55,258 nt of DNA from Catajapyx aquilonaris (Eukaryota). The stretch spans positions 62,001-117,258 of the forward strand of contig KZ538139.1 of assembly GCA_000934665.2 (NCBI GenBank), in the 5' to 3' direction. The position numbers were made by a program, and so were the translations under genes. The notes under the pieces are model-generated. The model was given only the letters and a program-made list of their open reading frames with translations, was not told the origin of the DNA and made no database searches. Shown one piece after another: positions 73-51,652 of this stretch. Positions within the stretch are counted from its first letter, which is position 1, and each line of letters starts with the position of its first letter.

Positions 73-3000
73 TACCTCCATCTTGATGGAGAGAGTCTGT
101 CCACTGATGACCTGCTTCATTTGGGTCATGGAAGTTATAAGATTAAGGTAAACCTTATCCATGGAATTAAAAAACTTGCATTGCTTCTAATATGGGCTAA
201 TAGGTAGATTTAAAAATGACCTCAAGTTAATATTATGCGAATATTATGATGGAACGATAGGTCATTAATATTGATAACCTGTTTATTTGTTTTGAAAATA
301 TGAATGACTTGTCAACAACTCAATTTTTTTCCACTCTAGCTGTCAAAAGATGCGGAAGAGAAAGTTCAAAGGGCAAGGAGTGTTGTGGAAGAAATTATCA
401 GAGAAAACAAAGGTAGACTATATTATTTTGATATGTAATTTATTTCACTCCAGTGTAATGAACGGAGACAACTTTATTTTCAATGTTTCAGTGGTGTATG
501 GAATCACAACAGGGTTTGGAAAGTTTGCCAGGACAGTCATTGGAAAAGATAAGCTAATGTATGTACAGTGACAACTGCAAATTTCGTTACACTATGACCT
601 AGAATTGTAAGGGAATATATTTTATATTGTCGGCAGAGAGCTGCAAGAAAGGCTGATAAGGTCACATGCAGCTGGAGTAGGGAATCCGCTGACACCTCAG
701 AAGACCAGAATGCTTCTGGCACTTCGGATCAACGTGATGGCCAAAGGGTACAGTGGTATCTCCCTACAAACGCTCCAGCAGCTCATTGACGCCTTCAATG
801 GTAAGTTAAAAGGTCACTCTAATCTAGTGTCTGAAAACCTGCAATATCCAGAATTCGCAATATATTCTAGCCACAGTTGACTTGATAAGTCATTTTGACC
901 CTTTATCCTAGAATGTCAAAATTCCACTGTCACTTCATGTAGCACAAAACTTTAACTTTTCATTCCATGAGAAACTGATTATTAGAATTACGATCAGTGG
1001 ATTATGACAATTATTTCTATGTCAACATGTCATACACTGTGAACTACATGCTACCTAACTCTCTGCATAAAGCATCCTGCCTATCATGGGTACCTGAGAA
1101 GGGCACGGTGGGCGCAAGTGGTGACCTGGCCCCACTGGCTCATTTGGCGCTGGGGCTGATGGGTGAGGGCAAGATGTGGAGCCCCGAGACTGGCTGGGGG
1201 GAGGCCAAATATGTCTTGGAAGCGCACAACCTGACCCCAGTCAAGTTGATGGCCAAAGAAGGAATCGCCATGATCAATGGGACCCAGCTGATCACGTCTC
1301 TTGGTGCAGAAGCAGTGGAGAGGGCAGGACTTATTGCCCGCCAGGCTGACGTAGTGGCTGCTCTCACACTGGAAGTGCTCAAGGGTACTTCAAGAGCATT
1401 TGATAGCGGTAAGAATGTTGTATTTCTGACATATGCTGTATAAAAATTACACGCATTGATGGAAACTCCACAGATGTGCAGAAGGTGCGGCCTCACAAAG
1501 GACAGATTGATGTTGCCAGACGTCTACGTGCACTGCTTCATTCAGACACATATCCATCCGAAATTGCACGTGAGTAATCTGTTACTTGCATTTCAGGCGG
1601 TTAAACTGACACGATTGCATTATTGCAGAGAGCCATCGTTTTTGCAACAGAGTGCAGGATGCGTACACTCTTCGTTGTTGTCCCCAGGTGCATGGGGTAG
1701 TTCATGACACCATTGAATTTGTGAGGAGCATCATCACCACAGAGATGAACAGTGCTACAGATAACCCGGTACTTCATTATCCATTCAGTTCTCCAGCTGT
1801 GTTTACATTACCTGAATCGTTCGTTTGCAGATCGTATTTTCTGAGAGGGCAGAGCTCATATCAGCTGGTAACTTCCATGGGGAATATCCAGCCAAGGCAC
1901 TAGATTATTTGGCTATTGGTGTTCATGAACTGGCATCCATGAGTGAGCGGAGAACTGAACGACTTGTCAATCCAGGTTTCAAATTTATTATATGCTCTAG
2001 ACAAATTTTCTTTTAGGCTAGGTTGCACTGCTGATGGTAGATTATCAACTGAGGGTTTGACAGCTCAATTGTTGCCAACAATCCCCTCTGTATCTAATCT
2101 ACCGTCACTAGTGCAATCTAGCCTTAGTGGCATAACAACTGGACTCTTATTGTCCTCTGCTCTTCCCTTCGCAGCACTGAGTGAACTCCCAGCTTTCCTG
2201 GTGCAGGATGGTGGGCTGAATTCCGGGTTCATGTTGGCCCACTGCACAGCAGCTGCCCTTGGTAAATTCTGACTTCTTAAATCCGCATGAGCACACCTAC
2301 TGGAGCTGATAATTAGCACATTACATATCAATAATAATTAGCGCAACAGTGGCACCACACTGACCCTAAATTTTCTACTAAAGTTTCAGAGAACAAAGTC
2401 CTGTGCCACCCTGCCTCCGTAGACTCCCTGAGTACAAGTGCAGGTACAGAAGACCACGTGTCAATGGGTGGCTTCTCTGCCAGGAAGTGTCTGGAGGTGA
2501 TTGAGAATGTAGAGAGAGTGATAGCTATTGAGCTCCTGGCTGCTTGCCAGGCCATTGAGTTTCTTCGCCCACTCAAGACAACAGTACCATTAGAGGAGGT
2601 ATACCGCACTGTGCGCTCAGTTGCTAGGCCATGGGACAAGGACAGATACATGGCCCCAGATATAGATGCTGCCACAGATATTTTGAGGAAAGATAAAGTG
2701 TGGAATGCAGTTCGGAGTCAGATAGAGCATTACCATGCCACACAGGTCAGTCTTTGACTTACTTTCATCCCATGATCTTATCAGTTTTGCATGAAATGAT
2801 TGGTCATCTCCAATGAGTGGTGGCCACACATGCATTACGTAATGATAGACACATATGCCCACCCTCTGTGTCATAACCTGCCATCACCAAGTTGACTAAT
2901 GGTTTCTCAAGATTTGCAGAATCCGCCTTGAATACTTTAAAAATTGAGTGTTTCACACCAATGTGAATATGTTTTCTTTCAGTCTGTGGAAACAAGAGTG

Positions 3001-9900: not shown

Positions 9901-10196
9901 TGTGGATATTTTGTCGATTGATCCCCTATCATAATTATGCAGCTGATCCATCAGCCTGTAATTCACTTATGCGCCTTCCATACTTAACTTACAAGGTCAC
10001 TTTGAATGTTATTTCGCACAGTCGGTCCTCGTTTCCAGCAAAGCAATTATTGTGTGCTTAATGACTAGTGATCAATTGAAAGCCTCAGGAATTATTTTTA
10101 GTAGCGGTTTGTTAGAAAAATAACGTGTGTTTCGTCGTGCACATTGACCAAAAGCTTCATCTCAAGAGATGGATCCTATGGTTTTCTTTTAAATGT

Positions 10197-10202
10197 TTTA
10201 TT
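10197..10202 (-). promoter_or_regulatory. Candidate poly(A) signal for the distal Shal last exon
   Basis: AATAAA on -, ~480 nt after the stop at 10682. Confidence 0.45.
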
Positions 10203-10681
10203 TACAAATAAATGGGTCACGTAGTAACAATGTGCTACATGTAACAGGGGTGTTGTAGGGTGAGGACGACACCTTCTAGTCCTGGTGGTGTCACCTGGAC
10301 GTGATGGTGTCGGCATCAACCTGTCCACGTGCCTCTTACATGTCGAGCACATGTACTGCGTGAAATGGATGAGCACCAGTGTGTGCCATTCCGAGACTAA
10401 CTGTAAGAGAAATGAAGGTTCTCAACGCTGAAGAGCAAGAACCCCAAGCAGTGGTGGAGCAACATGCTGCAGCCAGCCATCCCCCAGAAAAAAGGGGGTG
10501 GGTTGCCAACATGTGAAAAAATGATTTTTTTTGAGTATAACCACACTGATGCAAAAGGCGGTGTTTAGATCAACCACTCTCCTCCCGCACCCTGGTCACC
10601 ACTCTTCTGCCTGTGCTCAACCACACGGTGGTCGTCACTCGCTCCCAACAGTTCCCGGAAGCACTTAGGGAAGTCAATTCC

Positions 10682-11125
10682 TCACAAGGTCGAAATGCGA
10701 ACCACGGCCGAAGTGACTGAGGAAGAGGAAGAGGGCTGCTGCGGTTGCTGCAGCTCCTGGTATGGCGGCGGGGGCTGATGAGATGAGGAAGCGGATGTTG
10801 TTGGAACAGCAACAGCAGCAACGCCAGGAGAGGTTGCGGTGGAAGGCGTTGGGAGGTCCGTCTCCGATGGGGACACGCACGGGTTGGACATGTGGTGGTG
10901 GCTGCCCACTGAGGCGGACGATGGCAGCGCCGGAAGCTGGTCGCCGCCTGGGGGTGAGGCTGCCCCCGATGTTCCTCCGCTGGCCAGACCAGCCGCGTGC
11001 CGGTCGCCCACCGACGCGCGGTCGGGTGCGGCGGTGGGCGTTCGGTTCTGCAACCGGATCTGGATGTCGTTGAGCTCTTCCTCTGGACCCGCAGTTGACT
11101 CGGGCGTCATGCCGCGCTGGTGCTT
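10682..11125 (-). CDS. Shal: Shal distal last exon (147 aa, vertebrate-like tail ending VVRISTL)
   Basis: Branch point GCTAAC and ..TCCCCGCAG acceptor, phase 0. [15 protein letters not shown] resembles Kv4.2 QELSTIQIRCVERTP, and VVRISTL resembles IVRVSAL (from memory). Confidence 0.88.
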   Translation of the reverse strand, partial: KHQRGMTPESTAGPEEELNDIQIRLQNRTPTAAPDRASVGDRHAAGLASGGTSGAASPPGGDQLPALPSSASVGSHHHMSNPCVSPSETDLPTPSTATSPGVAAVAVPTTSASSSHQPPPPYQELQQPQQPSSSSSVTSAVVRISTL

Positions 11126-14100
11126 CTGCGGGGATTTGGACAGGACGTTAGCCATTGGGGGCGGACATATGGGCGGCCATGCTTCAGGAAGCCAAACATT
11201 CATTCAAGGCTTGCGTTATCGCCAGGTGGGAATCAAAATATATTCCCTCCCGCTCTGTCGGCTCTAGGAGGGAATAGAGTGCTGGCTCACTCTTTTTTGA
11301 TTCCCATCTGGTGTCAGTGATAAGTATCACTCTTTACGTCTCTCAGCATAACACTCAATAATATTAAAAAGGAGATGCCGTCTGGTACTAAAAGAAATGA
11401 AATCAGAATTAATAAATTTATCATTTCAGATCCCTCGGAACATGCTGCTGATGAATATGAAACGCAGGCGGTATGGATTGTGGACTCAAAATTTGTGAAT
11501 AATTACTGTACAACAATTATTAAGGATAGAAAATTTGATGTTTCATTTTCATCGGCGAATCAAACAAACTTACGAGAATAACAGGTATCCGGCCAATCAG
11601 TTGATTTTTAACTCCAATATTAATGTCCTTCAATAAAATTTGTATGCAGGAAATGTTATTTATGATTGGATTTAAGCATATTTATTTTGCCTCGATTGCT
11701 GGATGTTGAAAGTAGGTTGTTAATAATGTACTTTCGATCCAGTTATTATTTCCATATTTTCTGGTCCGCAACGACCAGCACTGGTATATTATACATCAAT
11801 TATCCGGATGCCTGTCAGCATTTATTAAACCAGTAACGTAACATAGGTACCTTTAATAATATACTAAAATGCAATTACATGCAAGTTACTATACATGTAC
11901 CTTTCGAGCCAAATTATAGCTTGCTAATAATGCCTACTCTATGTTCAACGAAAGGTATACGTATGAAGAGTCACACCTTACCAGTTTAGGCCACACGTCG
12001 AGCAAGGTGATCACCTCCTACTTAGTTACAATACTACTGTTACACATTGTTTCAATTCATTACGTGTGTCATTTTGTACGGTTTAAATTTTAGTAATGTG
12101 TAATAACAAATTATTGACAGTAATTTATCAGGCCGCATCTTTTAAATATTTTTGATGAGGGTCACATTGTGTGGAATTATTTGCATTCCGATGCAAATTC
12201 TCTCAAACAATGGAAAATTTTGATGCATCCAATATTGATTCTGCAAATCATTGGTCTAGGACATGTTGAGCATAACTGTGCCCGAGTACAAACCGGTGGC
12301 TTATGTGGCATTACCGACAGATATTCCAATTGCGTGGATAATCATCAGTTGCACTGCGTGACAATGAAATTAATTATCATCAATTCCAGACTGAAAATGC
12401 TGGGGGAAGTTGGGGACTTTCCATAACTGGGGCATATGAACATTATGGCCTATTAATGCATCCACATATCCCTGCTTGTAATTAGAGCTCGATTATCACG
12501 GTACCATACCAGCCCAATTACGTTGTCATGATGTAGCAATCAGTCGGTTTGTAATCTACTATATCCCGTTGTCAATCTGCTGAAAGTTCAAATGCACAGC
12601 TCTATTAATATTTTGAATTTTAAACCTGGTAGCCGCTATTTAGTGACCTTGGCTGGAATTTTAGTCCCGCACTGCTAGTTACTGCTAACTTAGCAGTATT
12701 GTCAGTGGTACAGTGCTGGACATTAATTCCGTCATACTGCTAGCGACATTTTCCGTTGCGTCTGACGTGCAAATCGAGCCGTGCGAGTAAGAAATGGTAG
12801 CCCTTGGGTGACGTCACGGGCGGGGGACAAGCCTTTTCTCCGTTGCCCCCCCCCCCCCGCCGGTGACGTCACTCAAGGCCTACCTCTTCTTACTCGCATA
12901 GTTGGCAGTGTTGGCAGATTCTGTTCCATTCGCCTAGGGAGGCTACAGCCTCTCGAAGCATATTGAAACTTTTATAGCACTGTCTCTTTACAAAACACCG
13001 TGACCTACCCTACACGTATGAATGTCTTTTCGTAGCAAGTGTTGCAGGTAGAATTCAGAGGCAAGGAGCACAATAATGTAATGATGACGAAGGGGAAATG
13101 GGATTCTTGGGGATCGAAGGTGGAGGTTTTGAACCCGGTTGGAAACGTAACGGTAGCCATTTGAGGCAGGAAATGAAAGTCTATCTAGCACCGAAAGATG
13201 AAGAGAGGTGTACGGGCGATGTAATTCGTCGGACGAGCCTTGTCACAATGACGTCTTCAAACCCGGGCAGAATTTGATATGCCAGGTACATCGTACTTAA
13301 CCGTTTTCATCTTTAAATGAGATTCGTCATTGCGAAAACTTGCTTCCTTCAAACTTTTGTCTAAAACGCGAATAAAGTTCTTTTTAATATTCAACGTTCT
13401 GCGGGACATTTTTATTGAAGTGAGGAGACGTGACTCACATAATCGAGTCCTACTTTTTTTTTGTCTCTCCACCGATCTAGTTCCAGTTCTACGAATAAAA
13501 TGAAAGCGCTTGAACTCTAGGCCCGGGGGAGGAGAGCATGTAGCTACCTTACGGGCAAGTTTAATTGCTCAGGCTAATGGGTAAGTACGTACGACGACCT
13601 CTTTTCTTGTGGGACAAAAAAAAGCAGCGAACGGTGCTTGAGCAATCTAATTACTGGGAAGGCCTTAAAATCACCCAATTGCACCCTAACCATTACAGGC
13701 TTATTCGTGGATAGGGATTTTTTTTTGCGCTAAATTGCGCGGTTTCTTTGACTCAATTCGGTGATGCCAACTGTTGGTGAAGAGTCAGAACTGTTGGTGA
13801 CGGCCCAAATAAAAGCCGCAGGATTACAACTTGTGACAGGTTTTTCTGTCCAACCTGCACGATTGCAGTTGATGACACAGGCCTGGTTTTGATCGGGTCG
13901 TGTGTATAAAACCACTTGTTAGGCCACGGTTGTTGTGTTGGAAAATCGAATCATAAGATGGGACAGTTTTTAGGCGATAGTGTCCGTCCTTTCCAGGCCG
14001 ATAAAACGCTGTCATTTCCCCGTTTCCGTAGGATAATTGAAGTTAATTTGCACAGGGACGCATTGTCTGATTTGGTCTAAAAATGGTTTTATTCATGTTC

Positions 14101-17100
14101 TAGGTCAGGTGTAACCCCAGGTATGCAGCAGACCATGAAGTAGAGCAAAGTGCAAACTTCTGGAAGTCGTTAATCGTTTTGCGTAATATCGATTTAAAGG
14201 TCAAGCGGTGACAAATAAACATCGGTTGATAAAGTAACGGTCTGGGCTTTAAAAAAAATATATGGGGCTAAAACTACTGGCACCGAATTCCACGAGTTAA
14301 ATGAGTTAAGTTCTGGGTCGGTCTCGCGGGAAAAGTTACGAGGATGTTACCTCAGAGAAGTAATTGCACCTCGGACTAGTTACTAACGCTGTGATATACT
14401 GCGCTGCATTCCAACAGGTATCATCTGAAAAGAGAACAACAGCAGCCTAGTAAATTCGCAGAATTGCAGTACATTCCTGATAAGGACTTATGAACTCTCA
14501 TTTCGAGTGGATTTTTTTGATCCATCCAATATGCGTTGACCCTGAGTAGTTTCTTCTGAGGCATTCTTCTCCTTGGGTTTGATCATTCGTCTTATATCGT
14601 CTCCTCGCTGGCCACTCGCCAATTTGGCTGGCTGAGAAAAGAAAAGAACTGGGAAGAAAGCCCATTCGCTTCACTCGTAACTTAAGCATCTTAAGCATTG
14701 CTAATAACATGCGGTCTGGTCTGTCAGTTGCGGCTTTGATGATTACATCTGAACGATTCGGCTGTTATTAGTATGTGGCAAAACATGTCGAATGTCATAA
14801 TCCAGTTATCAGCTAATGACCGTGATTATGGTTTCTCCCGTCAGTCACCTGCAAACATCGCAGAGCAGCCATATTTTAGCCTAAACGAATTCAGCTGATA
14901 TAATACATGGACCGCGTTTTGCAAGTAATTGCCCGTAAACTTACAACCAGTCCTGGTCATAAAAATTAGAGGGCACCAACTAAATTTTTGACCAGACCAG
15001 TTTGATGATGTCCGTCAGCCAATCTGCGCAGTTATGACCGCCCGTTAAAGGCATTATTGTGAGCCGCAGATCAACTACGAACTCAATTTGGATGATGTCC
15101 ACATGATGACGGAAAACTAGGGCCTTGAAGGCAAATATTTTGGGCTCAACCTAACCTAACCTAACCTAGCCTAACCCGGTGCCTTCAAAAACCGGCTCGT
15201 AAATTCGGCCTATTAGGGGTAGGTCCTGAATAGTGTTTTCGTAGAATGTACCATCTGATAGTGCTATCTGGATGTTCCGGAGGGGTTGTACCAGGTCATC
15301 TGTGCCCTCCGCCCCCAGTGTCGCGCTCCAATAAACGTATGGGGGGAAATCAAATGACACTTGCCAGTTCTAAGTGCGACAAGCGGGTATGTGCAGCCTG
15401 GCGTTGAATGATCAAAGAGGTTGTCTGCCTGTGTTTGGACTCAAACGAATTTTACACCCGCCTCGTTTTTTTCGCCCTCTATTTTGTATTGACTTTTGTA
15501 ACCCCCCTCTGTAATTATGTAACGGTTTGGTGCCTCCCCTTGATTCGAGCGGGTAAGTTTGAAATTTTATTACGCAGATTGCCCAGGCGCGAGGCGAGTA
15601 TCCGCAAGCAGGTATAAAATCACATTAATAAAGCATGCGGCGTTAATTAACGACGCGAACTGCATCCAAATTGATTTCAATTTGGGAAGTGGGGTTGGTA
15701 CTATTCTGTACTTTGGGAAGGGACTTCATTTTTGGCCTATTGATTCGTAGGTTTTGTCAACCGCCATGTTGACAAAACTCAAATGTTCTTGCAATATGCG
15801 GCTGTGCATGTGACATTTTGGCAGTTGACTACGACGAACTAATATCAGATGTTGTAGAGGATGAACTATTTCGTTTATGAGCCAGGTAATATACAGAAGG
15901 AGGAAGGAGAGAACGCTTCCTTCTGACACCAATAAACTAATGGTTCTAGGGTAAGATTATTGCTTCGCTAAGTACGCACAAAGCCCTAAGGTTTCCTTGT
16001 ACTTTGTCAAAAGTACGAAGTTGGTGGGGTAAAGGCGTGCATATTCAATCGATATAGGGAAATGGGCCTGCCTTTCTCTGCATCTTTCTTAGCATACCCA
16101 TTTTCACTACTCTCTGGTCAGGACAAAAGGGGAGGAAGATCCTCCCAAAAGTTGTCCACAAGGGGAAAGGGGGTGTGGATTGATTTTTTTTTCGTCTTCT
16201 TCTTCCTTTTTCCTTTTTTCCTTCTCTGAGGGATTACTTCCCTCCTTCTTTGAACCTCAGACGATGCAGCTGCTTTGTTGCTGCGAGGAAGGAAACAGGC
16301 CCATTCCTCTTTGCCTCGACGCTTCGGGATGGAACAGATCGATTCCGGCTGATTGCCATCAATGGAACTTTACGTGATTACCTCTGCTCAACATTTTATC
16401 AATTTTGTGGGCGGCCCGTGTAATCCGTGAGGTTTGTAATGCTCATTGCAGAAGTGGTGTCTTCTTAATAGGCTATAATGCCGCTTTAATTAAAGAACCA
16501 GGAGGCCTGAAAAGGATGTCTTCTGGAGAAAAATGGGAATTGGGATTAGTTTCGAGAAGAAATCTGGAAGAAATCTGGAAATCTGGAAACCAAGCTTAAC
16601 CCTGATGGATTCTAACATATGCTGCTGATCGTGCTGTTTTCTACGGTAAGTTTAATTTTAAATATAAAAATGCAAACCAATGTAGCTCTGTATAAACCCT
16701 AATTGAGGAGGGCAGGAGGGAGTCTACCAGTGAGTAAGGTGCTGGTGTGGTGGGTTGGATTCCACAGGCAAAGAGAGAATCAAAAAAGAGTAGAAAAAGT
16801 AGTAAGTATATACGGAGGAGGATGGATGCGTCATTACCTGTTTGACCTCGATCTTGTGGCTATAAACGTAGACTACGCGGTCACGGCCAGGACTGCAGGA
16901 CGCCAGGAGGGGGATGGTCTTCACAGTCATGCAGGCCAATGGGCATGCACACAGAGCAAGATGGCCGGTAGTGAACGCCATGCATGTGATATGTATCATT
17001 TTGTAAATTGGTTATTATTATTATTTTTGGTCAGCAGATCATCAGTAGCATCATTCGTCAGTCAGCAGCAGCATCAGCAGCAGCGGCAGCAGCGCCAGCG

Positions 17101-20100
17101 GCAAGAACAGTGTTGGTGGTGGTTTTGGTTGGTGGGCGGTGGTTGTGGTGGGCGGGCGGTGGTTGAATGTGGTGGGCGGTGGTACGTGGTGGTAGTTGGA
17201 TGGAGACACACAGACAGACGGTGCAAGTACCATCAAGGGATGGAAAGCAGAGAAGAGGGAAGAAGCAAGTCAAAACGAGGCCTCAACGAGGCAAGTCCCG
17301 TCTACCCCCGCCTCGGGTGCTGGCTCGGCCCCGTCTTCATCGCAGCAGCTCCTCTCCACTGCCATGAACTGGGGCCGAGCGCCAGCCAACTGGAACGAAT
17401 CAGGCACACAGACACTACTACTCATCAGCAGCAGTCTGCCCAGCCTCCATTGCATTGGAGGGGCTCTCTTCCATTGTGCAATACTCTCTATACTGATGGC
17501 TGCCCTGCAAAACTTCCGAACAACCCCCCCAAGCAAGCGACACACCAGCTGGAAAGACACCCTCTGAAGGTCACTTATATTGCCAACGGCAATTGCTACT
17601 CTTCCAGACAATCAGCGACTTTCACGGGGGGGCTCCAGGTGGTGTGCGGATTCATCTGAGAGAGCGATTCCCATTACTAGAGTGGTGTCTGTTAAGAGAG
17701 CCTGCAGTTTCTGTTGTTGCCAAGGTTACATATCTATAAACTATAGAGGGTCTTTCTGGAGATTGATTGGGGGGCGTTTGTAGCCTTCTACCTCTTTCTG
17801 GATGGCTCCCCCAGTTGTCTTTATGGAGCGTTTTGTGTTCCTGGGCATCTCTTAATTGAGGATGTGGACGAGAAGCCCAGGGAAAAAGTGCTCGAGAAAC
17901 CCTTATTTGGGCTGCTTGTCCACGCTGGAAATGGCATCCTTGCCTACTTCCTACACCACTCCACTACCGTACTTCTATAGAGGTGGGCCTACTTGCTCTT
18001 TATCTACTCATAGTCTCATACAGTCTATTGTATGATTGGAAAGCTGTGACCTTTTGGCGCCAAGTCTATAGTACCGGATGGATCTTGGGCCAGATCAACG
18101 TGAAAGCACTGGAGTGAGGAACAAAAACACTAAGACTAGTTTTGCTGCAGGCTGCTCGGAGCAAAGGAGCAAAGCCCTACTGAATAAATGTCAGAGGAAA
18201 TGCTTTGGTAATACTCACGGAGAGTGGGAATTGTGGGGTGCCGAAACAGAGATATGCATCAAGATTAGAGGTTGAAATCGTCCGATGCGTGCTACGTCCA
18301 TAATCAGAAGGCACATCACGAAAGGGAGAACCCAAAACAATCGAATGCATCAGACGACAGCGTGAGTTTGTTGTTGAGAATGTGTGAGAAGTTTGTTTAT
18401 ATGACAATGTCTAGACAGTGTAGTTTTGGCAGATGTACCAGTTTGATTTCGTGTCTTTTTGGAAATGGGTGAGCAGCTCTCGAAAGAGTGCATTGACTTG
18501 CTGCTGCCAATTTACTAGGTTATTTACGCAACTATTTTTAAATTGATATTGCCTTCTTAACCGCCAGCAGGAAGAATGCATTGAGGTGCAGAAAGGGTTA
18601 TGGCGTAAAACATTTTAAATAGAGTGAGCCTCTCTAATATTTTTCACTGGCACGCGACTTTGCCTCTGCCAAGACCAGCAGCCTTTGAGAAATGTAGTCC
18701 AAAATGTAAGATTTGGAACCAATGACTCCAAGCACACATTAACACACGCCTTATTTACTTTACCAATTAGATGTGACGTTTTTAGTGTCATTGGTTTATT
18801 TAAGGGTTTAGCACCACAGTAGAAACCATAGTTCCCACTTTAAATTTAACAAAGGTTGTTATTCGAAAGTTAAGTCACGGGAAGAGCCTAATTTTATCAA
18901 ATCAGATTTTGTTACCGCATAAAATGTTCTGCAAAGATCTGCTCTGATTCTAAACCCTTTAGTCGTACATTCCCCCTGCATTTTCTAAAACCAACATGTC
19001 AGTGTCTTATCAGAACAAGTGTACACCTGTAACGACAGAAGCAGCAGCGTTAAAGTCCCTGATTCTGCGAAGTATATCTGGAAGTGTGAAATGATCACCA
19101 GAGAGATTTATTCACGGTAGAGACCCATGCCACCTTTGATCATCAGACTGCAACAACTCGAGTGGTCAACAGCTTTCCTTCGACGGGTAAGCGAACCACA
19201 AACTGTAGAGGCGGGTGTGATATTACGTTGCAAAAAAATAAAACCTTGGCAACAATACCAGAGAAAAGATATTGGATGTGTGGGGGGTAAACAAAAAGGC
19301 AGTACCAGAGGATTAGTCGAGGCGTAAGAACTAATCTACAGCTGAAAGATTTCCATTGGGGGAGGGGGGGGGGGGGGANTGATATAAAAATAAAGAATGG
19401 TCGGGGCGGGGGTTGGGGGTAAGCAGAACACTTAAGCTACTGTCAATGAGAAAAGAAAACAGATATACAGTACGACTAGTGGATTAAATCCGTCCTGTGG
19501 GGCTAATCCTGGAAATGAAGTCGAAGGGGATTTGTCGTATAGTGTATAAGAGAAGCACAGCAAGTAACACACACTCATGAACTTGTCACCACTGGAAAAA
19601 GACGTGCAATTTGTGTGAACTAAGCGGTGAAAAAGTACACCTAGTAAGTGCTTTCTCGACAAAAGAGTGGACACATTATTGTGGTGTGCACATGTGACCA
19701 TTGTAGGGAAGTAGATTTTTAACTTTTGCGATTGATTGTGTCAACTACTCTATTGGGGTGTCTATCAGACTTGTCCTGAACTTGTCTGTTTGATGCCTTT
19801 CCAGCGAGTATTGAGTAACGTACCGCCGGTTATTGTCTTTTATCAACCGGCGATGGGCAAGTTTTTATACTTGTTTCAATATAAGCAAAGTGCAGCCATT
19901 GAGTCATGATGTCGTATGTGTGAAGTTACAGTGTGTCGAATCATTGTAGCCTTGCCGAATTAATTTCATTCAGCAGGGATTATGCTTTAGTAAATAATTT
20001 CTGGTGATATTGTTATGAAAGACTAATGTATTTTAAAAATTAATAGCAAAGCACGACGTCAATATTGTACTAAGACGATGCATAATCAACATAAATTGCG

Positions 20101-23100
20101 GACTAAATCTCAAATGAGCAATGAGACATTTGAAATGACTAAGCTTCATTACAGTATAATTAGAGTCAAAATAGAATCCTTCTCATTCTGATGTTATGTA
20201 ATGTTATGTATAACTTTTCAATCATGCTTTGTTTCTGATTTGCGCAATGGAACTGCCAACAGGCATACAGTATGTCCAGAAACTTCCCATTTTGAACAGG
20301 GTTACTTTCAAGCTGCACTGTAGATATTCCTATAATAATCAAATTACTGTGTGCCTGTGGGGTTATGCCAACCTTCTTGCATTGCTTACCTTCAAAAATG
20401 CGATCTAACTGTAAGACGAATCATATTAAATAAATCCCCTGTAGCTCATGGCTGTACTTTGAAGATATCCGGAATGTAAACTTGGCTTGCCTATGTATAG
20501 CTTTTCAAGCGAGTGTATGAGGAGTGTCGTTTGGTCCCCATGTTGTCCTATTGGGCACACAAACGTACAGGAAAAAGAGACAAGGAGCAACGGTACGAAT
20601 AGGTGACACAAGTGGCTCAACAAGTGACAGTGAGGGTGTCGGTGAAGGTGTACATATCAAAGAATAAAGTGATAACAACCGTGTACAGTAATGAACCAGA
20701 AGGAGAAAGAGGAAAAACTTTCTTATCCTGGGACATGACTGGATACAAGCATGTGAAGTGGCTGCAAGTGCTGGAAGGAAAAGCCGTGTGAAGTGGAAAA
20801 AAAAGGGCCATAAGTGCGCTGGTATTGGCTGGTTCGTGATTTTATACACATAGCCTCGTATTAAGCAATGAATAATGTGCCGTCCAATAATTGTAAAAGT
20901 GATTAAATTTTTAAAGAGTGACGAAAGTGTACTCACGCTTTCCATACGTTCATGGGCATTTTAATCTCAATTGGTGCTGACTTTTAAAGCGGAAACGTGT
21001 GCATGTGGTAGCGGAAGTTAGTTTAACGCCCATGTGCTGGCGCCACTGTGGCAAACCAGCATGGCCTTAGTTGTGCTTGATTAGTGCTCGGGGATTTACC
21101 ACTTGACCTAATTGGCTGCCACTACCCAATCGAAACAATTGCGACTGACCCCATGTGCCTATTTTACTACGTACATATGAAGTGTCCTGCAGTAACCGGG
21201 TTAAAGAGTCGAGCAAAATGTGTACGGGTCGTACACATGCAAGGTCCGCGTATGGTGTGCCAGCGGCCCGCTTTTTATTAGGACGGGATAAAAGCTTTAC
21301 GAGGCTCTGCGTCAAAATTCAGGCGAGGCGTCCGCCTATCACCCGTTCCAGGTTTTTACTGGCGCCATTTTCCAGCCTCGTCCCTCCAATTTGAAGCTCG
21401 TTAGCCTTCAAAGCTAATTAGGCCTAGGCGCTTTCAAAGGAGCCCAGCCAGACCTGGGCGTAACGTACACCGTCGAAGGAACCTCCTGAGCATGTTCACA
21501 ACCTCAGCCCTGCCGGCGTCTCACTTTTCACTGCATTGCCGTACCCACCTTTAACCCCTTCTCTGGATGCTCAGGTACCCATTTGCTCCTGGCGTTGAGT
21601 TATAAATACTTATGTTATCTTAAAAAATAAATGCAGTGACTGTTGTACTAAGCTACCGTTAAATATTTGCATTGTTGGCCCTTACCAGTGGCGAATGGGG
21701 CAAGGGAAACAATGTAGGCCCCGCGAGCAGTGTACCTTCTGCGCGAAGTTACTGCGCATCTCGCCCGTTTACACGAGGCCGCTGCTATTCTTATTTGGAA
21801 TTAAATGCTATACATGTGGACGAATCCCCTCCCTGAGAATACCTTTGGAAATGCCTATGCCATATTAGCTATGTCCAAGCGACATTATGCCCTTTTTTTC
21901 CACCCATGACTGGTAGTTCTTATTTGCTCCACACGAAAATTAGGGGGTGGGGAGTAGTTATAAGATCATGTTAATAATGTGCAAAAAGGGGGAATGCAAC
22001 AATTGGATATAAAAAAGGTGCTTTATCTGGGCTCCCTTCTTACCCTAGACTTTTTAAATATCCATTTATCAGCATAGGACACTATGGAACAGCGACGAAT
22101 AATGGCCATCCTTGCTTCACTTTCAATTTTCTCCCTAAAAAAATCCAAACGGACAGGGCGTTAAGATATTTTTGAGTGTTCAGGTCAGGACTCATTTAAC
22201 AGTCGCTTCGCACCTGTAAATTGGATTATTTTGGGACCGGGAGAAAAGGGAGAGTGAGTAGAGTCAAAAGTGACGTGTTTGCTTTGTTACGAGTAAACAC
22301 AGTGTCTTCCATCAACGTGATGACATAGTGGGAGATAACATGTTAAACGGATTTATCATACGTTTGATGAAACTAATTAAGCGGCTATGTTTGCCCACTT
22401 AAATTTTATTCCGGGACTATATGACTTGTTAGAACTCATGAAGTGATTTAGGTTCTGTTTAGTATGTAATATCAATTTAATATTAAGTGATTTTCAACCT
22501 CCCATCATGTTTTCACTCATCAATACAGGGTAAGGGACAAGTTAAGAGTAGTAGACGACTAAAAGTGAGAGAGAGAACGTTAATTTCCAACAAGAGAGGT
22601 GATCAGCACTAAAGTGGTTACCTGGTAGCGCTGACCGCAGCATCGTCCGCAGCATAACTGCATTAAGCGCGATCCTCCTCCTCGTCCGCCGACAGAAGGA
22701 TTCGGACTCGGAGGTGGGGACGGAGTTCCGGGCCTCTTTGGAGCCCCATTATACGGAACTTCCATCTCCACAAACTCCCGATCCTGCAATGAAAGACCAG
22801 GTTTTAGAAAGAGCTTTTTTTTAAAAAAAATCACCGCTGCAGGCGAAAAACCGGCCATACCGCGGGACCGAAAATCAGACCTGACGCAACGAAATGGCGA
22901 CCGGGCTTCTGGAACTGATCTGCATAGATATAAGCTGGGTCTAACGTGTACACTCTCAGCCAGTTTAATTGCCAAGGGAAATAAAGTGTTCCTTGTTAGC
23001 CTAGGCAAACATGTCGCTTGGATTGCTCACACTTCCCTTTGCATTATTCAGTGTTGCCTCGTATATGTTACTCTCTTTCCACATTAGGTGCTCGGAAGAG

Positions 23101-32100: not shown

Positions 32101-34435
32101 TAATTACCCACTTTTTGACACACTCAGCTTAAAATCTGCCAAACTTTTGGATGCATGCGATGTCGGTAATACCCTACGGTGATAATATCTGAAATGATCT
32201 AAATCATTGGAGACCTAACCTAACCTAACCCTCCTCTTCGGCTAGCTCACGACTAGCCTCCGTTCACCTCAGCATCCACGCTATCTCTCAGGCCAACTCT
32301 CAACTAACCCTATCTTGTGGCTGCGGGAGACGTCACAATTCCATTAAATATTTGGTGAAATTTTTCCCTCACACTCGCCTGACTAATATCATATGAATGT
32401 GGACCATTTTGCGAGCCGATGATATTGACTCTTCGCTATATTTGGGAGGTCGGCCGGACACGCGTGACGCATTTGTTTGCGGATAATTGGACAGGAACAA
32501 CATGGGATTGGAGGATTTATTTGCACAAGCGCAAAACTATGCAAAGGGCACTTTGGTCCAAGTTTTGGGAATTAGGAAGTCTAATTGGAGACCCCGTCCT
32601 CTTTGCGCTGCTTTGACTGTAAAGGGATAAAAGCAAACACCAATCGGGCGCATTTGCCTTCCAGGTGAGTCTATTTGTGGCCAATCCGAGCCATGCTCGT
32701 TAGAGCCAACATTTCATACTTGCATTTAATTGTCCACATTTCCTTGCCCGACTGTGTTTGCCTTGGCCTTCAGTGTTATTTGGAGGGGTCGAGCGGGATT
32801 ATCCCATCTTGGTAATTAAACCGCCAAGAAAGGAAACAATCAGTCCAAATACAATCTGCTTTGATCGCCCAGGAACGACAGCCCAAGCGACATTGTCATC
32901 AGCCAGCAGTTTTTGATAGGTTTTTGGCGAGACACATAGGCAGGTGATTGGCAATATAGCCATTGGAGAGAGGAATTCCGACATCTCGATGTGACATATT
33001 GCACGAATTTTTGCTGTTCCTAGGAATGTCAGATGGGTCCACAAATCATACGAACATACATCCTCATACAGTATGTTAAGTCAGAAAGTACACTTGCAAA
33101 GTGGAGGCAGTCAGGCTGCATAAAACAACAGGGAAACAAGCTCCTCCTAGATAGGCTTTTATATAAAGAGGATAATTTTGGGCTGGGAAAGCCTCTGGGG
33201 GATTCAAGTCTGGTTTCGGGAGAGGATTTCCACGGAGGAAGGCCTGATCACAGCTCATTAAGGAGCAGAGTCGGAGAGAAGATAGATTGCCGGTTGCCCT
33301 GGCAGCTGGGCTCTCAAACAGGGGATCTCCACCACCTGATATGGCCCACACACTCTCTCACCAGTCTTACTTGCTTACACAGGGGCTCACGCCTTGATGA
33401 AAGCAAAACACCCACCAATGGCTTTTATCAGATTGACTCCTGAAGTTGGGAACATTCGAACTAGCAAAAACCGGGCCTAACGGTTCCGAGCTAACCACGT
33501 GGCAGCCATGAGAAAGAACCATCATGGTGAGGCTGCTGAACACTTCAGGAAATGTCGGTTTTCTCCAATTTCTCTGATGTTTTTAGTTGAGTAGAATTTA
33601 CAGGTGTAGACATATAGAGTCTATATGTCTATATCTGTAAATTCTACGCAACTACTCTTAAAATCATCAGAGAAATGGGAGATATCCGACATTTCCCGAA
33701 GTGTTTGGCAGCCTCGCCATGATGGTTCTTTCCCATGGCATGCCGAAAACATTTCCTGAAGTGTTCAGCAGCCTCACATGATGGTTCTAGATCTAGAGTA
33801 TATATGCACACAAATACTACTTTATATGTTGTCTATTCTATAGAGATCACGATAAGTTTCACCATGGAACGCACTTGTGGCGAAGCGTCGAACTACATCC
33901 TCGTTGGGCGCCATTTTGGTTCGCGCCTGATCTCATTACATCACAGACTGATTGATGGTTCTAGTCACGAACCAGGTAAAAGGCGGGATCTGTCTGATTA
34001 CACAACCGTTACAAAAATGTCAACTTCCTTTTCTGCTGAGATACCGGAAAGGGAACCCTGGTCTAATCTGCAGTCATTAAGGCAGCCGACGAGCTTGGCA
34101 CGAAATGCGGTGCATATACGGAAGCTGTCATACCGTGTATATGAGTGTGACATGAGCACGAAAGGATTGCGTGCAAGAACACCCCTCACAAAATCTGGAT
34201 TCCTGGTGGGCAACAACCCTTGACTTGACCTGCCGAGAATCTGAACCACGCCCTATAAACATTGACCAGTACCTTTTGAGCTTTCCTCTTGTCAGCCCTC
34301 TGGTTTTGGTGGTAGATTCGGCTGAAGTTGGACACAATAACGGGCACAGGAAGGGCGATCACCAACACACCACTGAGTGAGCACACACCACCCACGATCT
34401 TGCCAGTTATCGTGCTGGGCACCATGTCACCATAT
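10682..34435 (-). CDS. Shal: Voltage-gated potassium channel Shal/Kv4 (KCND), 5'-partial; exons 34435-34273, 27229-27044, 22783-22622, then 11125-10682 or 17389-17270
   Basis: Pore/S6 [32 protein letters not shown], the Kv4 dileucine motif [16 protein letters not shown] and [19 protein letters not shown]. All junctions are GT-AG and in phase. The N-terminus to S5 is not in the window. Confidence 0.96.
12653..12708. repeat. Partial copy of the 3180-3251 hairpin family
   Basis: GGAATTTTAGTCCCGCACTGCTAGTTACTGCTAACTTAGCAGTA shares its core with 3180-3251. Confidence 0.75.
12711..12898. mobile_element. Truncated MITE, same family as 42781-43038, opposite orientation
   Basis: CAGTGCTGGACATTAAT..GTCATACTGCTAGCGACATTTT terminus; internal GCGAGTAAGAA..TTCTTACTCGC arms; the spacer GGGGACAAGCCTTTTCTCC is the reverse complement of that in the 42781 copy. 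Confidence 0.85.
15148..15177. repeat. Interstitial (CCTAA)n = TTAGG arthropod telomere-type repeat
   Basis: AACCTAACCTAACCTAACCTAGCCTAACCC, flanked by a short inverted pair TTGAAGGCA/TGCCTTCAA; a similar tract is at ~32214-32231. Confidence 0.8.
16651..16656 (-). promoter_or_regulatory. Candidate poly(A) signal for the proximal Shal last exon
   Basis: ATTAAA on -, ~610 nt past the stop at 17270, after a low-complexity UTR-like stretch. Confidence 0.35.
17270..17389 (-). CDS. Shal: Shal proximal alternative last exon (39 aa, Drosophila-like tail ending [10 protein letters not shown])
   Basis: Acceptor GTGCCTGATTCGTTCCAG, phase 0, matching the QRYQ donor. Encodes [39 protein letters not shown]. 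As I recall, Drosophila Shal ends ..DGTYLVEASF. Confidence 0.8.
   Translation of the reverse strand: MAGARPQFMAVERSCCDEDGAEPAPEAGVDGTCLVEASF
22622..22783 (-). CDS. Shal: Shal internal exon (54 aa)
   Basis: [48 protein letters not shown] acceptor and GTAACC donor. Confidence 0.93.
25787..25926. mobile_element. 140-bp MITE with long TIRs and TA flanks (Tc1/mariner-like)
   Basis: TA|CTATGGGGCTCAAATGGTTTTGGCCACTTTATCCTG...CAGGATAAAGTGGCCAAAACAATTTGAGCCCCACAG|TA. Confidence 0.85.
27044..27229 (-). CDS. Shal: Shal internal exon (62 aa) with the dileucine dendritic-targeting motif
   Basis: [48 protein letters not shown] acceptor and GTAAGT donor. Confidence 0.96.
33505..33788. mobile_element. 235-bp fully palindromic MITE-like element (33505-33739) plus a partial duplicate of its right arm (~33749-33788)
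   Basis: GCCATGAGAAAGAACCATCATGG...TAGACATATAGA/TCTATATGTCTA...CCATGATGGTTCTTTCCCATGGC. Confidence 0.85.
34273..34435 (-). CDS. Shal: Shal pore/S6 exon (163 nt)
   Basis: (G)[54 protein letters not shown]; the phase-2 TTTACAG acceptor falls within the first Gly codon of GYG. Confidence 0.97.
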
Positions 34436-37244: not shown

Positions 37245-37530
37245 CCGAAGCAGACTGGCATGGTGGATAAGGCGTCCGATTGCTAATCGGGAGGTCCTGG
37301 GTTCGAATCCCGGGCCGACCATCCTGACTGTGGTTTTCCACGGCGGTCTTTCTAGGATAATTCCGGGGTCGCTTTCGTATAATAGGCCACAGCCGCTTCC
37401 TTCCTTCCCTATCATTGGAGGTTGAAGAGGAAATGCCGGGCCAACCTTCCTATTATAAAGTGTTTCACGACTGCATACAACTCCAGCCAAATCCGCCACC
37501 TCGCCACCTCTAGGTAAAACTACAAACTAG
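37245..37530 (+). mobile_element. tRNA-derived SINE
   Basis: A box TGGCATGGTGG (37256-37266), anticodon-like arm CCGA-TTGCTAA-TCGG and B box GGTTCGAATCC (37300-37310), but no acceptor stem. The body GGTTTTCCACGG..AATAGGCCACAGCCGCTTCCTTCC resembles the conserved central domain of insect SINEs. Boundaries are approximate. Confidence 0.8.
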
Positions 37531-40699: not shown

Positions 40700-40762
40700 A
40701 TCTGATTGGACGATATCATCTGATTGGACGATATCGCCTCATTGGCCGATATCGCCTGATAT
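40700..40762. repeat. ~17-18-bp tandem repeat, about 3.5 copies
   Basis: CTGATTGGACGATATCAT / CTGATTGGACGATATCGC / CTCATTGGCCGATATCGC. Confidence 0.85.
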
Positions 40763-51126: not shown

Positions 51127-51652
51127 CCCCCGTTCTGCGCCTGCGCTATGGGGAGAGGCAGCGCCTCTGGTGGCTGAGAGAAGGAACTAGTAGCCTAGTA
51201 ATGTAATAATATATTATAATAAATTATAATATTACTAAACTACTAGTAAAATAACTATTAAGTAATTATTATATTATTAGATAAATAAAATAATTAATCC
51301 TTAGCCCATGTCCTTTCATCCTTGCACCGGAGTTAGAAGAAAAATCAGAAAATTGCAGGAAAATGGTGGTATTCCACCCCCCCCCCCTATAAGGGCATAT
51401 GGCCCTATCAACGGGGCAACGTAAAAAATAATTAATATTATATTATTAAATAAAAATAATAATTAATTATGACATTATTAAATAAAAATAACAATCAATT
51501 ATTATATTATTAAATAAAAATAAAAATCAATTATTATATTATTAAATAAAAATAAATAACAGTAATAAATATAATAAATTATATTACTTGGATACTAGTT
51601 CCTCCATCAAGACACCAGAGGCGCTACCTCCCCCATTGAGCAGGCACGGGGG
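51127..51652. mobile_element. ~525-bp foldback/MITE-like element with internal AT-rich ~32-bp tandem repeats
   Basis: Arms GCCTGC..ATGGGGAGAGGCAGCGCCTCTGGTG..GGAACTAGTA and TACTAGTTCC..CACCAGAGGCGCTACCTCCCCCAT..GCAGGC; about four copies of AATCAATTATTATATTATTAAATAAAAATAA at ~51430-51555. Confidence 0.8.

What the first reader, a model, noticed from the sequence alone, without database searches (positions are those of the whole stretch)
10682..17389. One Shal/Kv4 gene keeps both the insect-type and the vertebrate-type C-terminus as alternative last exons
Seen: the phase-0 QRYQ donor (22622) fits two separate terminal exons, each with its own acceptor, stop and candidate poly(A) signal: 17389-17270 (..[10 protein letters not shown]) and 11125-10682 (..[15 protein letters not shown]...VVRISTL*). 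Recalled knowledge: Drosophila Shal ends DGTYLVEASF, and vertebrate Kv4.2/4.3 end V-R/K-VSAL, a class I PDZ ligand. ISTL fits S/T-x-L and EASF does not. Inference: splicing and polyadenylation switch PDZ anchoring of the A-type channel on or off. The locus may also show how the fly tail arose, by an exon gained inside the ancestral last intron.
Basis: partly seen in the sequence, partly recalled or inferred. Interest (0 to 1): 0.75.

Follow-up and report, generated by a model that had tools for sequence, protein, structure and literature searches.

The report
Shal channel gene, three alternative endings
A wingless hexapod's single Shal potassium-channel gene carries both the fly-type and the older crustacean-and-cockroach-type protein ending, with an overlooked small optional exon between them, a layout also found in termite-like DNA that suggests how flies came to use a different ending.

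Summary
Both exons are real and correctly placed: A (17389-17270, ends EASF) and B (11125-10682, ends ISTL), each in frame with the donor at 22622. Neither is peculiar to this animal. B is the annotated Shal end in 43 of 73 named non-holometabolan proteins fetched; A ends 55 of 108 holometabolan ones. The order A-C-B recurs in 7 termite-like loci. C has an unusually long AG-free zone upstream: 361 nt here, 148 in termite-like and 340 in ant-like DNA. Here and in termites the zone starts at A's stop codon, which looks like C's distant branch point. So A, C and B are best read as three competing acceptors. A's own poly(A) site is unsupported: the hexamers are at chance density here and absent in termite-like DNA. 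No RNA evidence could be examined. B's S/T-x-L end fits a class I PDZ ligand; A's end is conserved too, so a partner swap is as likely as 'off'. A solid, modestly new variant of known C-terminal splicing.

The parts
34273..34435 (-). Shal exon 2 (pore end, S6, to ...ADKRKAQK)
   Evidence: Pfam Ion_trans on 34431-34273. Exon 1 is not in the window; a single Shal-type first exon lies on another contig (L005)
27044..27229 (-). Shal exon ending LEKTT, phase 0-0
   Evidence: PF11879; one match in the genome; best named hits are springtail Shal, 94%
22622..22783 (-). common exon DREFVE...QRYQ; its donor (GT at 22621) serves all three downstream acceptors
17270..17389 (-). exon A, 39 codons plus TGA, fly-type tail ending EASF
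   Evidence: homology
16921..17281 (-). 361-nt AG exclusion zone in front of exon C
   Evidence: longest AG-free gap on the minus strand (3156 AG sites), next 180; GA occurs 13 times as expected; 0 of 20000 base shuffles AG-free
17230..17273 (-). candidate distant branch point (TTGAC, branch A = last base of A's stop codon, 17270) and pyrimidine tract (33 of 40) for exon C
   Evidence: same arrangement in termite-like loci (CTGAT, 36 of 40); inferred from motif, not mapped
16928..16984 (-). three TGCATG motifs (Rbfox-type) within 66 nt before exon C
   Evidence: only 100-nt stretch with three of the strand's 23 TGCATG; three GCATG at the same place in termite-like loci, none in the ant-like locus
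16838..16918 (-). exon C, 81-nt in-frame cassette (TIPLL...IEVKQ), donor CAG|GTAATG, weak proximal acceptor
   Evidence: 18 of 27 identical to the cockroach cassette, 0 of 1000 shuffles; present or absent in RefSeq isoform pairs
16651..16656 (-). nearest poly(A)-like hexamer after A (ATTAAA), downstream of C; not above chance
10682..11125 (-). exon B, 147 codons plus TGA, ending ISTL; tandem acceptor CAG|AAG|CAC
   Evidence: cockroach X3/X4 and aphid isoforms differ by the first K
10197..10202 (-). first AATAAA after exon B, candidate poly(A) signal
   Evidence: spacing not above chance

Best explanation
This is the single Shal/Kv4 gene of a non-winged hexapod, with a three-way choice at its 3' end. 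Shown by sequence and homology: the donor at 22622 is in frame with A (stop, EASF tail), with C (27-aa cassette that then splices to B) and with B directly (S/T-x-L tail). Inferred: B, with or without C, is the ancestral pancrustacean and probably the main product, and can bind class I PDZ scaffolds. A arose inside the last intron before winged insects. It became the main end in beetles, moths and flies, where no B or C was found; bees and ants keep A, C and a different distal exon. Inferred mechanism: C is recognised from a distant branch point that lies on A's stop codon, followed by scanning along an AG-free zone that holds Rbfox-type motifs, so A and C are competing acceptors of one unit. 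An A-type mRNA runs on through C and either ends in the C-B intron or splices from C's donor to B. The functional effect is most likely a change of C-terminal partner or of channel amount, not of gating.
For: Intact phase-0 exons with AG/GT. Junctions common-to-B and common-to-C-to-B appear in annotated cockroach, cricket, locust and damselfly isoforms; common-to-A in fly, beetle, moth, bee and ant. One bee gene (Hylaeus) has both X1 (C plus distal exon) and X5 (EASF). A-C-B order in 7 of 12 metagenome loci found by the A motif (four haplotypes, 95-97.5% identical); A-C in 2 more, one of them ant-like. TTTCAG/TTCCAG acceptor in frame before A in window, termite-like and ant-like DNA. AG-free zone before C is the longest or tied longest gap in the window and in all 5 loci tested; the other five Shal acceptors have 21-54 nt. 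Verified distant-branch-point exons have this anatomy (PMC1431707, passages). Tail classes by group. A tree puts the window outside winged insects, next to a springtail.
Against: No RNA from this organism was examined. Outside Holometabola only 1 of 73 named proteins ends in EASF, a termite gene model whose last exon looks over-extended, so use of A there is not shown. The metagenome loci were found with a pattern that demands the A motif, so they cannot say how often A is missing. The termite-like AG-free zone alone is weak (220-275 of 20000 shuffles AG-free). The window's zone contains simple repeats that lack AG anyway and six other YTRAY motifs. In the ant-like locus the zone starts about 650 nt after A's stop and has no GCATG cluster. 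A review notes PSD-95 is low or undetectable in native Kv4 complexes (PMC3973911, passages). The node that excludes the window from winged insects is 92/98, not starred, on 166 columns. Absence of B and C in flies, moths and beetles rests on fetched proteins, not on their genomes.
Confidence: 0.68

Rival explanations
1. One reading: A and B are two true last exons, each with its own poly(A) site, and the choice turns PDZ anchoring on (B) or off (A).
For: Both exons are intact. B fits S/T-x-L in 43 of 44; A fits no S/T-x-L. Kv4.2 binds PSD-95 through VSAL (PMC3973911, passages). The ant-like locus has AATAAA 68 and 79 nt after A's stop, so A is probably a true last exon there.
Against: No AATAAA/ATTAAA between A's stop and B in the termite-like loci tested (L016, L015; about 1960 nt, only variants such as AGTAAA). 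In the window the first hexamer lies behind exon C at chance spacing. A's last residues are strongly conserved, which a mere 'off' state would not need.
Confidence: 0.3
2. Outside holometabolans A is mostly a regulatory or poison choice: the A acceptor gives an A-spacer-C exon spliced to B, with an early stop and a long 3' UTR, degraded or poorly translated. Its 3' end is kept partly because it overlaps C's branch point.
For: EASF ends only 1 of 73 named non-holometabolan proteins, although the exon is in termite-like DNA. The codons GAG GCC TCG are identical in window, termite-like and ant-like DNA. Stop codon and pyrimidine tract have branch-point anatomy. A diverges faster than C or B among cockroach/termite sequences (22 of 33, versus 27 of 27 and 82%).
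Against: Frame, length (33 aa in termite-type sequences) and protein similarity at both ends of A are kept, with differences mostly at third codon positions (biased, since the search pattern allowed mainly synonymous change). The same peptide is the main C-terminus in flies, moths and beetles.
Confidence: 0.25
3. A or B is a leftover of a paralogue or an assembly artefact, not part of one transcription unit.
For: The assembly is fragmented (20583 contigs; exon 1 on another contig). One metagenome locus (L018) breaks off between A and C.
Against: Single match in the genome for exon 27229-27044 and for B. Same order in independent termite-like DNA. L018 is 100% identical to L015 up to a short repeat and then unrelated, as a mis-join would be.
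Confidence: 0.02

Closest known systems
RefSeq Shal isoform sets of Hymenoptera (e.g. Hylaeus X1 XP_053992995.1 and X5 XP_053993046.1)
   Same: One gene with an EASF end and a distal end reached through the same cassette C; A precedes C in ant-like DNA.
   Different: Their distal exon (DLKKRG...SETA) shows no similarity to B (920 and 281 of 1000 shuffles score as well) and has no S/T-x-L end. In the ant-like locus A has AATAAA close behind its stop.
RefSeq Shal isoforms of Periplaneta, Schistocerca, Anabrus, Ischnura, Hetaerina
   Same: Common exon to B, with or without C; one-lysine tandem acceptor variants in Periplaneta.
   Different: None of the isoforms listed ends in EASF (4 of 4 Periplaneta and 4 of 4 odonate entries are B-type); only part of each cluster was listed.
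Drosophila Shal1/Shal2
   Same: Isoform B ends in the A-type tail (P0252); two spliced isoforms are reported (PMC12037467, passages).
   Different: No B-type tail or exon C among 24 dipteran proteins fetched; a 490-aa D. willistoni isoform stops right after LEKTT (P0191).
Lobster shal splice variants (Baro et al. 2001, PMID 11566511)
   Same: Alternative splicing of arthropod shal is in print (title seen in a reference list; recalled: many isoforms, little effect on gating).
   Different: Paper not held, so I could not check whether its C-terminal variants match A, B or C; the two crustacean tails fetched are B-type.
Vertebrate Kv4.2/Kv4.3 tail
   Same: An anchored profile aligns EELNDIQIR with ELSTIQIR and runs on to residue 605 of 630; Kv4.2 ends in a PSD-95-binding VSAL (PMC3973911); two termite-like loci end ISAL.
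   Different: A B-only profile finds no Kv4 chain at E up to 10; the alignment stops before the last 25 residues.
Distant-branch-point exons (tropomyosin, alpha-actinin, PTB exon 11; Gooding et al. 2006, PMC1431707)
   Same: Long AG exclusion zone, branch point and pyrimidine tract at its 5' end, regulatory motifs inside, alternative use.
   Different: Here the upstream partner is a stop-containing exon whose stop codon is the candidate branch site; nothing is mapped experimentally.

Membership tests
Shal/Kv4 channel gene | Shal-type N-terminus, T1 domain, six-helix Ion_trans core, Kv4 C-terminal domain | tested here: met
   PF11601, PF02214, PF00520 on L005; PF00520 and PF11879 on window exons. 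The link of L005 to the window is inferred, not shown on one contig.
Alternative last exons | each exon has its own in-frame acceptor and stop | tested here: met
   acceptors at the same place in termite-like and ant-like DNA
Alternative last exons | proximal exon has its own poly(A) site | tested here: inconclusive
   hexamers at chance density in the window, no canonical one in termite-like loci, two close ones in the ant-like locus
Alternative last exons | both junctions seen in RNA of the same organism | not testable with these tools
   no run could be laid on the window; annotated isoform pairs exist only for bees, with a different distal exon
Class I PDZ ligand (exon B) | free C-terminal S/T-x-hydrophobic | tested here: met
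   ISTL here; 43 of 44 B-bearing proteins end S/T-x-L, only position -1 varying among the last three; the exception is a fused gene model
Class I PDZ ligand (exon B) | binding to a Dlg/PSD-95-type PDZ domain | not tested
   no binding data; no complex prediction was run
Class I PDZ ligand (exon A) | free C-terminal S/T-x-hydrophobic | tested here: not met
   position -2 is A (81 sequences) or E (4)
Distant-branch-point exon (exon C) | AG exclusion zone of 100 nt or more | tested here: met
   361, 148 and 340 nt in window, termite-like and ant-like DNA
Distant-branch-point exon (exon C) | branch motif plus pyrimidine tract at the 5' end of the zone | tested here: met
   TTGAC plus 33/40 and CTGAT plus 36/40 pyrimidines; motif only, other YTRAY motifs lie further down
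Distant-branch-point exon (exon C) | branch point mapped by lariat sequencing or mutation | not testable with these tools
   needs RNA or a minigene
Vertebrate-type Kv4 tail (exon B) | homology detectable without the channel core | tested here: not met
   B-only profile gives no Kv4 hit at E up to 10; with the core as anchor the ELxxIQIR motif lines up

The most novel reading that the evidence does not exclude
The fly Shal tail began as an exon that formed just upstream of another exon's distant branch point, with its stop codon serving as the branch site. In wingless and hemimetabolous hexapods it is a minor or poison choice without its own poly(A) site. Holometabolans gave it a poly(A) site, moved C's branch point away (the ant state), and then lost C and the PDZ-ligand exon B. 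One locus would show a spare exon being promoted to main C-terminus, and would predict that fly Shal, unlike cockroach and vertebrate Kv4, is not held by Dlg.
Probability: 0.3. Interest if true: 0.65.

Novelty: new variant of a known kind. Interest (0 to 1): 0.42.

Why it matters
Alternative C-termini that change PDZ ligands are a known theme in ion channels (recalled), and each tail here is already in public annotation. What I did not find in print (searches) is the A-C-B layout, the switch of main tail at the base of Holometabola, or the branch-point anatomy tying A to C. If right, Drosophila Shal is a derived model for Kv4 anchoring, while cockroach, locust and crustacean Shal keep the vertebrate-like ligand. 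The window pushes the origin of the fly tail back to before winged insects and gives exact junctions to test.

Tried and rejected
RNA runs: none was listed for 10000-17700, so no reads were laid; this is no evidence either way. B-only profile against solved structures: only low-complexity linker-type hits. RNA structure across A-spacer-C: no better than shuffles (z = +0.98); no conserved non-coding blocks between window and termite-like DNA away from the exons. Further alternative exons: 184 distinct tails against the window gave only the common exon, A, C, B and one stop-containing chance hit at 4820-4692. Homology of the bee distal exon to B, and of A to B: not detected, so A is not a visible duplicate of B. 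Stop-codon read-through of A: 72 open codons follow here, but the frame closes after 14 in termite-like DNA; rejected. Profile search of 50%-cluster representatives with A: 23 hits, several unrelated repeats, none named outside insects. L018 set aside as a probable mis-join; L017 and L024 end too early to show C. Earlier scan notes: nothing on this locus. A structure prediction of tail plus PDZ was not run: a pass would follow from likeness to solved pairs. Baro et al. 2001 was not held. No supplements were consulted.

Full report
Observation. On the minus strand the window holds Shal exons at 34435-34273, 27229-27044 and 22783-22622; the last ends QRYQ with GT at 22621. Exon A (17389-17270) and exon B (11125-10682) start after AG, are in phase 0 and end EASF* and ISTL*. 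Exon 27229-27044 and the start of B each match once in the genome. A Shal-type first exon lies on a separate small contig. The poly(A) signals are not more than chance: AATAAA or ATTAAA occurs every 594 nt on this strand, and the nearest lie 614 nt after A and about 480 nt after B.

What the tails are. A aligns to Drosophila Shal isoform B (12 of 31 identical; 0 of 1000 shuffles). B aligns to cockroach and springtail Shal ends (58/119, 45/140). I sorted 181 species-named proteins out of the 289 fetched. Among 73 from crustaceans, myriapods, springtails and hemimetabolous insects, 43 end in B, 1 in A (a termite gene model) and 29 otherwise (fragments, read-through or other ends). Among 108 holometabolan proteins, 55 end in A, none in B, 18 (all Hymenoptera) in a different distal exon and 35 otherwise. 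These are cluster listings, at most 15 members each, not a census. So B is the older arthropod tail rather than a vertebrate oddity. Its link to human Kv4.2/4.3 shows when the channel core anchors the alignment (EELNDIQIR against ELSTIQIR), but a B-only profile finds no Kv4 chain. A tree on 166 columns places the window outside winged insects, nearest a springtail (88% identity; the separating node is 92/98, not starred).

A missed exon. Between A and B lies an 81-nt phase 0-0 exon, C (16918-16838), with donor CAG|GTAATG. It is 18 of 27 identical to a cassette that is present or absent in annotated cockroach, cricket, locust and damselfly isoforms, and is related to a bee cassette. A scan of 184 distinct tails showed no further exon.

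The layout is shared. A pattern for A's last eleven codons found 12 metagenome loci. Seven termite-like loci (four haplotypes, 95-97.5% identical) hold A, C and B in that order. One more holds A and C, an ant-like locus holds A and the bee form of C, two end too early, and one breaks off at a short repeat, probably a mis-join. The pattern demands A, so it cannot show where A is missing. In the bee Hylaeus both an EASF isoform (X5) and a C-plus-distal isoform (X1) are annotated, but that distal exon is not detectably related to B.

How the choice probably works. C's proximal acceptor is poor in pyrimidines. Upstream of it there is no AG for 361 nt: the longest gap on the strand (3156 AG sites, next gap 180), against 21-54 nt for the other five Shal acceptors. 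GA is not depleted, and 0 of 20000 base shuffles are AG-free; simple repeats in the zone make that figure optimistic. The zone is 148 nt in four termite-like loci (longest or tied; about 1% of shuffles) and 340 nt in the ant-like locus (longest of 152; 0 of 20000). Such zones mark exons with distant branch points, where branch site and pyrimidine tract sit at the 5' end and regulatory elements lie inside (PMC1431707, passages). Here and in termite-like DNA the zone begins in A's GAG codon, A's TGA lies in a YTRAY motif, and 33 or 36 of the next 40 bases are pyrimidines. Three (T)GCATG motifs sit within 66 nt before C in both (97 and 32 of 5000 dinucleotide shuffles reach three); UGCAUG is the Rbfox1 site (PMC8742874, passages). 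I infer that A and C are competing acceptors of one unit. No canonical poly(A) hexamer lies between A's stop and C here, or between A's stop and B in the two termite-like loci tested. An A-type mRNA must therefore run through C and either end in the next intron or splice on to B. The ant-like locus differs: AATAAA 68 and 79 nt after A's stop, an AG-free zone starting far downstream, and no GCATG cluster. All of this is anatomy; no branch point or junction was observed.

PDZ claim. Picked by internal motifs alone, 43 of 44 B-bearing proteins end S/T-x-L, with only position -1 varying among the last three; two termite-like loci end ISAL. Kv4.2 binds PSD-95 through VSAL, though the same review says PSD-95 is low or undetectable in native complexes and has little effect on channel properties (PMC3973911, passages). 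A has A or E at -2 (81 EASF, 4 EESF; the other 14 of 99 are read-through or partial models) and is not a class I ligand. Its conservation suggests another partner, an RNA-level constraint, or both. 'On or off' is therefore one option, not the default.

What is known. Two spliced Drosophila Shal isoforms are reported (PMC12037467, passages). Alternative splicing of lobster shal is in print (title in a reference list; paper not held; content recalled only). Searches for Shal splicing, PDZ and evolution returned no paper on this layout; the library lacks most subscription papers. PMC3519636, PMC6386995 and bioRxiv 2025.09.16.676508 (passages) gave nothing on Shal tails.

Verdict. A real feature, shared across hexapods and partly visible in public annotation. 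The new elements are the cassette and branch-point anatomy linking A to C, and evidence that the fly tail predates winged insects and replaced an older PDZ-type tail. Use of A in this animal and any binding remain untested. Interest 0.42; new variant of a known kind.

Noticed in passing
window 979-2754 (+): Exons of an aromatic amino acid lyase gene (Pfam PF00221; probably histidine ammonia-lyase), facing Shal tail to tail.
   Followed up: partly
window 11125-11122 (-): Tandem acceptor CAG|AAG at exon B; cockroach and aphid isoforms differ by the same single lysine.
   Followed up: partly
window 17269-17051 (-): A's stop is TGA followed by C, then 72 open codons; not kept in termite-like DNA. 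The stop is TGA in window, termite-like and ant-like DNA.
   Followed up: partly
window 16892 (-): A pyrimidine-rich AG inside exon C (16 of 20) is out of frame and would stop after three codons.
   Followed up: no
window 37255-37330 (+): Stretch resembling a tRNA with a B-box-like GGTTCGAATCC, not called by ARAGORN; possibly a tRNA-derived repeat inside a Shal intron.
   Followed up: partly
window 40700-40753 and 51422-51579: An 18-bp unit in three copies containing ATTGG, and an AT-rich 32-bp array.
   Followed up: no
proteins P0108, P0109, P0113, P0195, P0199, P0217: Annotated isoforms that skip the common DREFVE exon and join LEKTT straight to B (aphids, prawn) or to A (a fruit fly, a caddisfly).
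   Followed up: no
protein P0226: A divergent Shal-like ant protein that still ends in the A tail; possibly a duplicate gene.
   Followed up: no
L018 near 1524: Identical to L015 up to a short GC-rich repeat between A and C, then unrelated sequence; probable mis-join.
   Followed up: yes
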